Positions 42,001 through 45,000 of a DNA stretch of 64,000 bases are shown here, in pieces. The DNA comes from Escherichia coli (GTDB lineage Bacteria > Pseudomonadota > Gammaproteobacteria > Enterobacterales > Enterobacteriaceae), in assembly GCF_024223415.1 (NCBI RefSeq), contig NZ_CP100500.1; one strand, given 5' to 3'. A program made the position numbers. Positions within the stretch are counted from its first letter, which is position 1. Each line of letters begins with the position of its first letter.

Positions 42001-45000
42001 TTTGAGGCCACGAAAGTTCACACTATCAAAAATATCGCCATCGGTATAACTATCACCTACCGTTAACCGTGAGCGTAAGGGAATAATGTCACGTTCAGCC
42101 GACGTATTGATATGCTGCCATTTATTGCTGTCAGATGAATTGCTACTCCCACTGTTATAACTCCACGTTGAGTTATCGCGTAGTCGCCAACTACCAATGT
42201 TGATGCCACTCTGTAAATTCAAATATGCATAGTTTGATTTTCCTGCATTATGGTTACTACGATTATTAATAGAATTACCATTAAAACTATAGTTTAGAAG
42301 CCCTGCATTTATTCCTTCTTCCCACAGTTCAGGAGAAACATAGCCGCGAGCCATTCTGCCAACATAAATTTGCGGAACGGAGAGTGACAGATGTTGCTGA
42401 CCAACATCAAACTCAGTTGATGCGTCGACCAAACGATCCTGAAGTGGTGTGCATGCGCTGTTGTCCGGCACATGTTTTTCTGCTGAATGTTCCTTATTGT
42501 CTAATAACGCAGATTTTTTTATGCCAAGACTGACAAGAAGATCTGTACTCAGGCATGGGATGAGATCTGCATTATTATCATCTGCAATAAAAGTAATATC
42601 CCGACTAGTCATAAATTCGTCGTTCAAATAAATGTCGACCCGATATGTACCAGGTGGTGCCTCGCGTCCCTTAGTAAAGGCGGATAAATCGACAGATTCA
42701 GCAAGATCATTGCTTAAAAACCGTGGATTAAAATAATACTCTGCGTCAACGGGAAATACCGCAGTTGCTAAGCCAAGGGCAATGGTAAGCCGTACAAAGC
42801 GAGGCAGTAGTAACACCTGATGCAAACGATATGCCTTAAATGCGGCACGAAAGGCTGTCATTATTAATTCCGATTGAGTTTATTATTAATTAGGTCACTG
42901 GCTTACTGCATGGTTGCCTTAATACGCGGAGTTAATGCGCCGTAATCATTGATCGTCTGAAAACTGATATCCCCGGTGGCAGCATGCGGGATATCCACCG
43001 ATACTTCACCTTTTGGCGGCACCATGGTGTTTGGGAGATTGCTATTTCCTGCTTTCATATTTGTTACGGTAATGAAGTAGGGCGTTGGATTAATAAGAGT
43101 GAGTTTGCTACCGCTGCGACGAAACCGAAGCATTGCAGGCGCTTCTTCAGGTGCCATTGCCAGGTTCGTGGGGCGATAAAACATTTTTATGCGGCTAATA
43201 ATTGCCAGCTGTAATGTATTCTCATTCTTCTGGTCTTTTTCCATAGCAGGAATAGCTTTAACATTCACCCAGAACAGGCTTTCACGGTCGCCTGGTAACT
43301 GATGATTAGTGGCGTTGATTATCCGCAGCGTATTCTCTTTTTTACCTTGCATGGAAAAAAGCGGTGGGGTAATGACAAACTGGGTGTCTTTTTGGTCACC
43401 TGCATTTTCTATCCATGACTGAATGAGATAGACACTGGCAGGATCATTATTCGTGACAGGCAATAAAACCTGTTTCTGGTTTGCCGGATAAATTACCCGC
43501 GTCGCACCCAGTGCGACAGCTGCGTTGGCAACGGTGCTATGGCAAGCAAAGAGCAATAAAAGTAACACTGTCGCCATAAAGGAAATAGAGTAGGGGGTAC
43601 GCGTAGTTTGCATCTGATGCATTCTCCATGTGTTAAGAGGATAAGCGGGAAAACCGTTACATCAGACAATCGGTAAATGTTGCTAATACATTGGCGAGTC
43701 GCCGGGTTTCCAGACTTAATGCGTTTGTAATAAATGTTGGTTCTCTTTTAATAGGAAAACCTTGCTAAAAAGTAAATATTTTTAATAACAGTAAGTTTAA
43801 CTACTATTGTTTATTGATAGTTTAGATATTATGTGATTTTTCATAGCGCTCCAAATACAAACCACTCCTCATTAATAATGAGATTCACATTGGTGAATTG
43901 CTCGGGTGTGTGTAGCCATGCCACACACACCCTGTTTCAATTTCAGATGACGTATAGCCACCTTAAGATTGAATTATAGATATTGAACTTTGAAGGTCGC
44001 ATCTGCGTTTGCAGTACCAGCTACGGACTGCCCGAGTGCAATATAACGAGCCTGGAACGGCAGTATATTCGTGCCATCAATCAAGTCAGTTTTAGCGCTA
44101 AAAGTGGCACCATCAAGTATTAATACCTCACCCGTACGGTCCAAAATTTGGATACCGACATTTTGGGCAGAGCCTGCCGCTGAACTCTGCAGCGCTAACG
44201 TATCGTCATTACTGGTGACAGTAGTACCCAGGAATGCAACAGCTGCATTATTGGAAACATTGGTATCACAATCATTCAGCTTGATATTGAAGCCAACGGC
44301 GGAGCTGAGGTCACCCGCTTTAGCCAGGCGAGAAGAACGAACCTGACCCAGCTCAACCGTTTGGTTCATTGATTCGGAATCAATCGCACAAGCGGCATTT
44401 ACCACTTCACCTTTAAAATGAATAACACCGCCATTAACAGTGGTCGTTACTGATTCATCACCCTCGGCTGCGCTTACCGCAGCAGACGACATCGCCAACA
44501 CAGAAACGACAATCATACCAACATGTTTGAGTTTCATAATTCTCCAAAATTTATATTTAAGTAGCTGAATAAAGAGAGTTAACAATTAAGTCATTCTGTT
44601 ATTGCTTATAAAACAAGAATCATTCTTGATTGGTTGTTGCCCTGAGAATATAGTTTCCAGGGTTATTACATTTCACGAAGAACGATGATATCTTTAAATC
44701 ACAAGGACACCTAATCACAACAAGTTTATTGCTGCACTTGTTGAAGAGAGTATTTGCAAAAACATTTTATGTCGCTAAATAACATGACGATTTCATTATG
44801 CATGTTATTTATAAACCGTGACTAAACAGAATATTATTGCGAACAAGGGAAGTGTCAGGAAAGGTCAAGGGCTACTAATGGTTTATATGGCTATAAATCA
44901 TTAGCTATAGTTAATGTTTGCCTGATGTAACTAACACCGAATTGCTCTAAACAGATAAGTGCAGGGTTTATTAAAGCTGACCGACAGACTTTCTTAACCT

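What the first reader, a model, noticed from the sequence alone, without database searches (positions are those of the whole stretch)
43894..43940. Perfect 10 bp GT/AC stem-loop between the major subunit and chaperone genes
gggtgtgtgt-agccatgcc-acacacaccc lies about 40 nt downstream of the major subunit stop, inside the 351 bp subunit-chaperone spacer. Chaperone-usher operons (fim, pap) commonly use such a hairpin to attenuate read-through and set subunit-to-usher stoichiometry. An alternating GT/AC tract can also adopt unusual DNA conformations or slip during replication.
Basis: partly seen in the sequence, partly recalled or inferred. Interest (0 to 1): 0.3.

Follow-up and report, generated by a model that had tools for sequence, protein, structure and literature searches.

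The report
Conserved RNA hairpin after F9 pilin gene
A very stable, almost invariant RNA stem-loop lies just after the major-subunit gene of the E. coli F9 (Fml/Yde) fimbrial operon; it probably shields the pilin message from decay, is not a classical terminator, and is an undescribed example of a known kind of element.

Summary
The hairpin is real.

- **Strength and conservation.** It is the most stable compact hairpin in the 64 kb window and the least variable 29-nt stretch of the intergenic spacer. 3590 of 5426 complete E. coli genomes carry it, once each.
- **The "perfect" stem is a rare allele.** 97% of carriers have G where the window has A. That gives U.G in the sense RNA but a C.A mismatch on the other strand.
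- **No slippage.** GT-tract length is essentially fixed; a GT-unit deletion occurs in 3 of 3590 genomes.
- **Not a canonical terminator.** No U-tract follows the stem.
- **Family context.** Most FimA-family genes have, at the same position, a short hairpin with GGA in its loop. In fim this is the core of the sRNA FimR2. E. coli F9 has lost both GGA motifs and carries this longer stem instead.

Best reading: a sense-strand RNA element that protects the pilin message from decay, and perhaps leaves a small 3'UTR fragment. It has not been described in the literature I could search. Interest is modest.

The parts
43904..43932 (-). The stem-loop. Minus-strand RNA is GGGUGUGUGUGGC-AUG-GCUACACACACCC. 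The RNA 5' arm is 43932-43920, the loop 43919-43917, the 3' arm 43916-43904. It has 13 pairs, including a fixed G.U (43922/43914).
   Evidence: Energy is -22.8 kcal/mol (window allele) and -22.4 (majority allele) as sense RNA, against -18.5 and -14.6 as plus-strand RNA. 12 of 13 pairs are invariant in 18 distinct E. coli sequences.
43911..43911 (-). The only polymorphic stem position. The plus strand has T in the window, C in most genomes and A in the divergent lineage. In the RNA this gives U-A, U.G and U.U respectively.
   Evidence: U.G in 13, U-A in 2, unpaired in 3 of 18 distinct sequences. The majority 33-mer is exact in 3487 of 3590 genomes.
43933..43962 (-). Conserved, probably single-stranded stretch just 5' of the hairpin in the RNA (GGUGGCUAUACGUCAUCUGAAAUUGAAACA). 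It shares the core ACGUCAU with the published first 18 nt of FimR2.
   Evidence: The block 43904-43962 has 5 of 59 variable columns against 84 of 296 in the rest of the spacer, Fisher p = 0.0009. The small helices predicted here are broken in some strains. FimR2's first 18 nt, UUCAGGGACGUCAUUACG, come from bioRxiv 10.1101/2022.02.17.480891.
43974..44537 (-). F9 major-subunit gene (fmlA; RefSeq labels it 'type 1 fimbrial major subunit FimA'). The stop codon TAA is at 43974-43976.
   Evidence: The protein is 98-99% identical to the top-scoring E. coli proteins annotated as type 1 fimbrial major subunit FimA.
43614..43903 (-). AT-rich untranslated spacer between the hairpin and the chaperone gene. 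It is the likely place for RNase E cleavage and/or Rho action (inference).
   Evidence: No relic of fimI. No sigma-70-like promoter on the minus strand. 88 of 326 spacer columns outside the hairpin are variable.
42903..43613 (-). F9 periplasmic chaperone gene, the next cistron.
   Evidence: RefSeq CDS, 711 nt.
44795..44824 (-). f9 operon promoter (TAGTCA, 18-nt spacer, CATAAT). The transcription start is inferred near 44788.
   Evidence: Promoter scan. It matches the 5'-RACE result in CFT073: start 251 nt upstream of the start codon, -10 CATAAT, -35 TAGTCG, 18-bp spacer (PMC3966885).

Best explanation
The element is an RNA stem-loop in the 3' untranslated region of fmlA, the first cistron of the f9 fimbrial operon. 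It is read from the operon's own (minus) strand.

Proposed mechanism:
1. RNA polymerase starting at the f9 promoter transcribes fmlA, the hairpin, a roughly 290-nt AU-rich untranslated spacer, and then the chaperone, usher and tip genes.
2. The long transcript is cut in the spacer by RNase E, or ended there by Rho.
3. 3'-to-5' exonucleases trim back until the 13-bp stem stops them.
4. This leaves a long-lived fmlA message, while the distal part decays faster. Pilin mRNA therefore exceeds chaperone and usher mRNA.

What is shown: the existence, strength, strand bias, position and conservation of the hairpin, and that it replaces the GGA-loop hairpin found at this position in related operons.

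What is inferred: the cleavage or termination events, the exonuclease block, and the effect on stoichiometry. A small fraction of direct termination at the hairpin is possible but not favoured by the sequence.
For: - **Strength.** It is the strongest compact hairpin in 64 kb on either strand, with z = -7.1 for the local fold.
- **Strand asymmetry.** The sense RNA folds at -22.4 to -22.8 kcal/mol, the antisense at -14.6 to -18.5. Both non-Watson-Crick positions are G.U in the sense RNA and A.C on the other strand.
- **Conservation.** Only 1 of 29 columns is variable, against 88 of 326 elsewhere in the spacer (Fisher p = 0.003). It is the least variable 29-nt stretch, in an alignment that includes a lineage about 12% diverged (88% identical over 217 nt).
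- **Population.** The majority 33-mer is exact in 3487 of 3590 carrier genomes, single copy.
- **No disrupting changes but one.** None of the 18 distinct sequences has a pair-breaking substitution, apart from U.U at the single variable pair.
- **No terminator tail.** No U-tract follows the stem.
- **Co-regulation.** Major subunit, chaperone and distal genes go down together in an APEC pst mutant (PMC2648988), consistent with one transcript.
- **Family habit.** A hairpin at this position is found in about 45 of 50 FimA-family loci, with compensatory stem changes such as GGGCC/GGCCC to GAGCC/GGCTC and to AGGCC/GGCCT.
- **Precedents.** papA mRNA is protected by a structured 3' end, and intercistronic stem-loops set differential decay in other operons (PMC5927463).
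Against: - No transcript, 3'-end or half-life data exist for this locus in anything I could reach.
- There is no covariation within E. coli: 12 of 13 pairs never vary, so the structure rests on thermodynamics and conservation.
- The conservation could partly reflect the short evolutionary depth of the sample.
- RNase E and Rho involvement is inferred only from the AU-rich, untranslated nature of the spacer.
- The divergent lineage tolerates a U.U mismatch in the stem.
Confidence: 0.5

Rival explanations
1. Partial transcription terminator. The hairpin makes a fraction of polymerases stop right after fmlA, so fewer transcripts reach the chaperone and usher genes.
For: - The stem is strong and G+C-containing, and sits directly after the most highly needed cistron.
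- In some relatives the hairpin at the same position is followed by a U-run and looks like an intrinsic terminator: L012 GCCCAUUUUC, L014-L016 GGCCUGUUUUC, L033 GGCCCGUUUUUC, L088 GCCCAGUUUUUU.
- papA is reported to end in a terminator structure (PMC5927463).
Against: - On the transcribed strand the tail is GAGCAAUUCACC, with 2 U in the first 10 nt. The terminator scan does not call it.
- Established knowledge of E. coli intrinsic terminators says a U-tract is needed for efficient release.
- No promoter is predicted in the spacer, and downstream genes are co-regulated with fmlA, so read-through must be substantial.
Confidence: 0.17
2. 3'UTR-derived small RNA, a diverged paralogue of FimR2. RNase E would cut near the fmlA stop codon and release a fragment of about 60-70 nt: a conserved single-stranded stretch plus the hairpin. 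It would act by base pairing rather than by titrating CsrA. This is compatible with the best explanation rather than exclusive of it.
For: - In fim, the hairpin at the same position is the core of FimR2: a 35-nt, RNase E-generated, abundant sRNA made of a single-stranded region plus a stem-loop (PMC9723502).
- F9 keeps the ACGUCAU core of FimR2's first 18 nt.
- Conservation extends about 30 nt upstream of the stem, beyond what a mere exonuclease block needs.
- The small helices predicted in that stretch are not conserved, so it is probably single-stranded.
Against: - Both GGA motifs that FimR2 uses for CsrA are absent (UUAAGGAC has become UUAAGGUG; the loop is AUG).
- A covariance model of the FimR2-like module finds 12 of 13 held-out family loci but no E. 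coli F9 locus.
- There is no expression evidence, and F9 is poorly expressed under laboratory conditions.
- ACGUCAU is only 7 nt.
Confidence: 0.2
3. DNA-level feature. The alternating GT/AC palindrome would act as a slippage-prone tract, a Z-DNA or cruciform former, or a protein-binding palindrome.
For: - The sequence is an alternating purine-pyrimidine palindrome.
- Rare one-unit GT deletions do occur, in 3 of 3590 genomes.
- Sliding the pairing register by 2 still pairs 65% of cells.
Against: - Tract length is fixed in more than 99.9% of carriers.
- The run is only 4-5 GT units and is non-coding, so slippage would switch nothing.
- The majority allele breaks the DNA palindrome at two positions while keeping RNA pairing on the sense strand.
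- It is single copy per genome, so it is not a repeat family such as REP.
Confidence: 0.04
4. No current function. The hairpin would be a neutral remnant, for example of a rearrangement that replaced the ancestral GGA-loop hairpin, kept by linkage and short divergence times.
For: - There is no covariation.
- It is E. coli-specific, and relatives outside E. coli have a different hairpin.
- F9 is deleted or disrupted in about a third of E. coli genomes (1836 of 5426 lack the element; PMC3966885).
Against: - It is significantly less variable than the surrounding spacer, even across the lineage about 12% diverged.
- The A allele, which restores a Watson-Crick pair, appears on two different flank backgrounds (window and A3_bat).
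- It is an extreme outlier in stability.
Confidence: 0.09

Closest known systems
FimR2, the 3'UTR-derived sRNA in the fimA-fimI intergenic region of E. coli and Salmonella (PMC9723502)
   Same: - F9 belongs to the same fimbrial clade as fim (the gamma1 subclade), and the element sits at the same place, directly after the major-subunit stop codon.
- Both have a single-stranded stretch followed by a stem-loop with no U-tract.
- Both share the ACGUCAU core.
- F9-like operons outside E. coli (Citrobacter L011, Morganella L084/L085, and L086-L089) still carry the GGA-loop hairpin.
   Different: - The stem is 13 bp rather than 5-6 bp, and lies about 20 nt further downstream.
- Both CsrA-type GGA motifs are lost.
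- A covariance model of the module does not recognise it.
- There is no expression evidence.
- The next gene is the chaperone after about 290 nt, not fimI after about 35 nt.
The structured 3' end of papA mRNA in the pap operon, as summarised in PMC5927463
   Same: A stable structure at the 3' end of the major pilin cistron. It is credited with making pilin mRNA outlast and outnumber the rest of the operon's RNA.
   Different: - pap belongs to a different fimbrial clade and has an unrelated sequence.
- The pap element is described as a terminator structure.
- papA mRNA is also defined by an upstream RNase E cut and a 5' hairpin, which I did not look for here.
Intercistronic stem-loops that act as mRNA decay barriers: the puf operon stem-loop, the stem-loops behind differential mRNA stability described by Newbury et al. 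1987, and CFA/I differential decay (all as cited in PMC5927463)
   Same: A stable hairpin without a U-tract between a highly expressed upstream cistron and weakly expressed downstream cistrons. The proposed action is blocking 3'-5' exonucleases.
   Different: - The F9 hairpin is single copy rather than a repeated element.
- It is specific to one operon.
- It is untested experimentally.

Membership tests
Intrinsic (Rho-independent) terminator or attenuator | G+C-rich stem-loop in the nascent RNA | tested here: met
   13-bp stem, -22.8 kcal/mol, on the transcribed strand.
Intrinsic (Rho-independent) terminator or attenuator | Run of U residues immediately 3' of the stem | tested here: not met
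   The tail is GAGCAAUUCACC. It is not called by the terminator scan.
Intrinsic (Rho-independent) terminator or attenuator | RNA 3' ends or a coverage drop at the site | not testable with these tools
   No Term-seq or RNA-seq data for this locus could be reached.
FimR2-type 3'UTR module of FimA-family genes | Position directly downstream of the major-subunit stop codon | tested here: met
   The hairpin starts 41 nt after the stop; family hairpins start at 19-30 nt.
FimR2-type 3'UTR module of FimA-family genes | Two GGA motifs, one single-stranded and one in the hairpin loop (CsrA binding) | tested here: not met
   There is no GGA between the stop codon and the end of the hairpin. The first motif reads GGU and the loop is AUG.
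FimR2-type 3'UTR module of FimA-family genes | Match to a sequence-and-structure profile of the module | tested here: not met
   Model R1, built from 41 loci, scores 12 of 13 held-out loci (18.6-65.8 bits). It gives no hit at E <= 10 in the window and none at E <= 1 in four E. coli F9 loci.
FimR2-type 3'UTR module of FimA-family genes | A discrete RNase E-dependent small RNA accumulates | not testable with these tools
   This needs Northern blots or sRNA-seq in F9-expressing cells.
Intercistronic mRNA-stabilising stem-loop (exonuclease barrier) | Stable stem-loop at the 3' side of the better-expressed cistron, on the sense strand, with no requirement for a U-tract | tested here: met
   The strand bias comes from G.U pairs.
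Intercistronic mRNA-stabilising stem-loop (exonuclease barrier) | The upstream mRNA segment has a longer half-life than the downstream segment, and this depends on the stem | not testable with these tools
   This needs rifampicin chase experiments with stem mutants.
Repeated extragenic palindromes (REP/BIME-like) | Many copies per genome | tested here: not met
   Exactly one copy in every carrier genome.
Slipped-strand (contingency) repeat | Repeat-number variation among strains | tested here: not met
   The majority form is exact in 3487 of 3590 genomes. A one-unit deletion occurs in 3 of 3590.

The most novel reading that the evidence does not exclude
E. coli F9 may have converted the ancestral FimR2-type, CsrA-titrating 3'UTR module into a different small RNA. 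It would consist of a conserved seed of about 30 nt (with the ACGUCAU core) capped by an unusually stable 13-bp GU/AC hairpin, released from the fmlA 3'UTR. It would act purely by base pairing, for example in cross-talk between fimbrial operons or with motility genes, when F9 is expressed at low temperature.
Probability: 0.15. Interest if true: 0.55.

Novelty: new member of a known kind. Interest (0 to 1): 0.3.

Why it matters
F9 (Fml) fimbriae contribute to calf colonisation by EHEC, to UPEC biofilm formation and to attachment to plants. Apart from H-NS repression and temperature control, little is known about how they are regulated.

A conserved RNA element between the pilin and chaperone genes is a concrete, mutable handle for asking how the large excess of pilin over chaperone and usher is set. 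The contrast with the CsrA-binding FimR2 hairpin of the sister fim operon also shows how one 3'UTR position can be rewired between paralogous operons. Even so, this is an incremental addition to a well-known theme, not a new principle.

Tried and rejected
- **Rfam.** No family matches the hairpin. FimR2 itself is not in Rfam, since the fimA-fimI region of L063 gives no hit.
- **Degenerate fimI in the spacer.** tblastn and blastn with FimI and with fimI-containing regions find nothing.
- **Repeated element.** Single copy per genome.
- **Tract-length polymorphism.** Looked for with four population searches. Only a GT-unit deletion (3 genomes) and a one-base loop insertion (1 genome) turned up.
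- **Covariation in the stem.** Impossible to assess within E. coli, because 12 of 13 pairs are invariant. Orthologues outside E. coli have a different hairpin.
- **The two flanking small hairpins predicted.** Not conserved.
- **Internal promoter in the spacer.** None by consensus scan.
- **Terminator for a plus-strand transcript.** The plus-strand tail UGUUUCAAUUUC is moderately U-rich. However, there is no plus-strand gene or promoter nearby, and the majority allele weakens the plus-strand stem to -14.6 kcal/mol.
- **Literature.** Searches for any description of this hairpin, or for transcript-end data at the locus, found nothing. The pap and CFA/I primary papers were not held.
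Full report
**Where this is.** The window is E. coli. A 481-nt query spanning the whole fmlA-chaperone intergenic region is 100% identical to O145 strain RM9872. RefSeq annotation of that strain shows ydeP, ydeQ, ydeR, ydeS, a fimbrial usher, a periplasmic chaperone, a "type 1 fimbrial major subunit FimA", a broken HTH gene, hipA and hipB. This is the F9 (Fml/Yde) chaperone-usher operon between ydeP and hipBA, as described by Wurpel et al. (PMC3966885).

All f9 genes lie on the minus strand of the window:
- major subunit (fmlA): 43974-44537
- chaperone: 42903-43613
- usher: 40210-42861

The promoter scan finds TAGTCA, an 18-nt spacer and CATAAT at 44824-44795. This matches the promoter mapped by 5' RACE in CFT073, whose start site is 251 nt upstream of the start codon. 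That places the start near 44788 in the window.

**The observation.** The inverted repeat is at 43904-43932. As minus-strand RNA it reads GGGUGUGUGUGGC-AUG-GCUACACACACCC. That is 13 pairs (12 Watson-Crick and one G.U) with a 3-nt loop, at -22.8 kcal/mol. It begins 41 nt after the fmlA stop codon.

Three results show it is more than chance:
- The 96-nt surrounding RNA folds at -41 kcal/mol, z = -7.1 against shuffles.
- A scan of every 33-nt stretch on both strands ranks this hairpin first in the whole 64 kb.
- Perfect inverted repeats of at least 10 bp with short loops occur 11 times in the window, against 0.57 expected in dinucleotide shuffles.

**Population data.** 3590 of 5426 complete E. 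coli genomes carry the element, always as one copy. The rest lack this part of the operon, as K-12 is reported to do (PMC3966885).

In most genomes the 3' arm reads GCUACGCACACCC, not GCUACACACACCC. The majority 33-mer is exact in 3487 of 3590 carriers. The window's own 41-mer is exact in only 36.

The substitution turns a U-A pair into U.G in the sense RNA, which costs 0.4 kcal/mol. On the plus strand it creates a second A.C-type mismatch, dropping that strand's fold to -14.6 kcal/mol. Together with the fixed G.U pair, this asymmetry argues that pairing is kept in the minus-strand RNA, not in the DNA or an antisense RNA.

The A allele occurs on two different flank backgrounds, the window and the bat isolate A3.

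A lineage of about 19 genomes is only 88% identical over 217 nt here. It keeps the hairpin except for U at the same site, a U.U mismatch.

Length variants are very rare. One GT unit is deleted from the 5' arm in 3 of 3590 genomes, and one genome has an extra G in the loop. This rejects slippage or phase variation.

**Conservation.** I aligned ten spacers, including the divergent lineage. The hairpin has 1 variable column of 29, against 88 of 326 in the rest of the spacer (Fisher p = 0.003). It contains the least variable 29-nt stretches of the spacer.

The conserved block extends about 30 nt upstream, to 43962 (5 of 59 variable; p = 0.0009).

Twelve of 13 pairs never vary in 18 distinct sequences, so there is no covariation evidence for or against the stem. 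The two small flanking hairpins seen in the single-sequence fold are broken in several strains.

**Is it a terminator?** On the transcribed strand the stem is followed by GAGCAAUUCACC. There is no U-tract, and the scan does not call it. The consensus scan finds no promoter in the spacer. The major subunit, chaperone and distal f9 genes fall together in an APEC pst mutant (PMC2648988).

From established knowledge of E. coli intrinsic terminators, a stem without a U-run releases polymerase poorly. Strong attenuation at the hairpin itself is therefore unlikely.

The hairpin is followed by about 290 nt of AU-rich untranslated RNA. That is the sort of sequence where RNase E cuts and where Rho can act on untranslated RNA; this is inference, not a result.

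**Family context.** I fetched 58 loci encoding relatives of the major subunit from species-representative genomes, plus eight loci (L082-L089) encoding six further relatives of 72-83% identity.

About 45 of 50 loci have a short hairpin 23-28 nt after the stop codon, with GGA in its loop (typically GGGCC-AGGAN-GGCCC). It is preceded about 10 nt upstream by a second GGA. The stems show compensatory changes: GGGCC/GGCCC, GAGCC/GGCTC, AGGCC/GGCCT and GGGCA/UGCCC.

In E. coli fim this is the sRNA FimR2. It is 35 nt long and is cut from the fimA 3'UTR by RNase E. It has one GGA in a single-stranded region and one in the loop, and CsrA binds at the stem-loop (PMC9723502). Its first 18 nt are UUCAGGGACGUCAUUACG.

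F9-like operons outside E. coli have no fimI gene and a 290-480 nt AT-rich spacer before the chaperone. These are Citrobacter L011, Morganella L084/L085, and L086-L089. They still carry the GGA-loop hairpin.

E. coli F9 does not:
- UUAAGGAC has become UUAAGGUG.
- The core ACGUCAU is retained.
- The 13-bp GU/AC stem sits about 20 nt further on, with loop AUG.

A covariance model built from 41 family modules finds 12 of 13 held-out loci just after their stop codons. It gives no hit in the window at E <= 10, and none in four E. coli F9 loci at E <= 1.

So the element occupies the FimR2 position but fails the tests for being a FimR2 family member. In some relatives the homologous hairpin is followed by a U-run and looks like a true terminator (L012, L014-L016, L033, L088). 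That keeps the attenuator idea alive as a minority view.

**Interpretation.** The best-supported reading is a sense-strand RNA stem-loop that marks and protects the 3' end of the pilin message. After cleavage or Rho-dependent termination in the spacer, exonucleases would trim back to the stem. fmlA mRNA would then be more stable and more abundant than the chaperone-usher part.

This is the mechanism described for other intercistronic stem-loops, and for the structured 3' end of papA mRNA (PMC5927463). I give it about 0.5.

The other readings, with rough probabilities:
- direct partial termination: 0.17
- a neutral remnant: 0.09
- a DNA-level role: 0.04

No paper I could search mentions this hairpin. 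No transcript-end data for the locus were reachable.

**Verdict.** The feature is real, strongly conserved and almost certainly acts at the RNA level. It is an undescribed example of the known class of stem-loops that follow pilin genes, not a new kind of element. Interest is 0.3.

Noticed in passing
window 43613-43666 (minus strand): A conserved 9-bp helix, UCUGAUGUA (43666-43658) with UGCAUCAGA (43621-43613). It encloses the chaperone gene's Shine-Dalgarno GGAG (43627-43624) and both candidate start codons. In the divergent lineage one pair changes A-U to G-C (compensatory) and the neighbouring pair changes U.G to U-A. It probably limits chaperone translation, which bears on subunit-to-chaperone stoichiometry.
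   Followed up: partly
window 43797-43844 (minus strand): A small ORF (MKNHIISKLSINNSS) with a GGAG 5 nt upstream of its ATG, inside the spacer. The GGAG/GGAA and the ATG are conserved. A one-base A-run difference and a stop codon shorten it to 7 or 4 codons in other strains, so it is probably not a conserved peptide.
   Followed up: partly
window 43700-43735 (minus strand): A second conserved island in the spacer (UUUAUUACAAACGCAUUAAGUCUGGAAACCCGGC, containing a GGA). It is nearly invariant even in the divergent lineage. Its function is unknown, and there is no promoter-like match.
   Followed up: no
L082 (GCA_902850055.1, contig CADHRM010000080.1): A contig with hipBA followed by a major-subunit gene that is 83% identical to both the F9 subunit and FimA. 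This is followed by a canonical FimR2 region and by fimI, fimC and fimD that are 97-98% identical to the true fim operon. It looks like a fim/F9 recombinant or an assembly chimera.
   Followed up: partly
L070 (E. coli STEC299, NZ_CP022279.1): A deletion removes the major-subunit gene up to about 12 nt upstream of the hairpin, leaving the hairpin and spacer intact.
   Followed up: no
L076, L078-L081 (E. coli N96, R32_14_1F, RMDEC465, 2020CK-00188, EC42405): About 19 complete genomes carry a deeply diverged allele of the F9 region, only 88% identical to O157 over 217 nt. This suggests an old allelic lineage or import from another Escherichia clade.
   Followed up: partly
FimA-family loci L011-L064 and L084-L089, first 60 nt after the stop codon: The two-GGA FimR2-like module is conserved across Klebsiella, Citrobacter, Raoultella, Kluyvera, Enterobacter, Serratia, Pantoea, Erwinia and Morganella fimA-like genes, with compensatory stem changes. 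That is much wider than the Escherichia, Shigella and Salmonella range discussed in the FimR2 paper.
   Followed up: partly
window 45511-47117 compared with L001: hipA is an intact 459-codon ORF in the window. In the otherwise identical reference strain RM9872 it is annotated as a partial pseudogene, so the window is not from that exact assembly.
   Followed up: no
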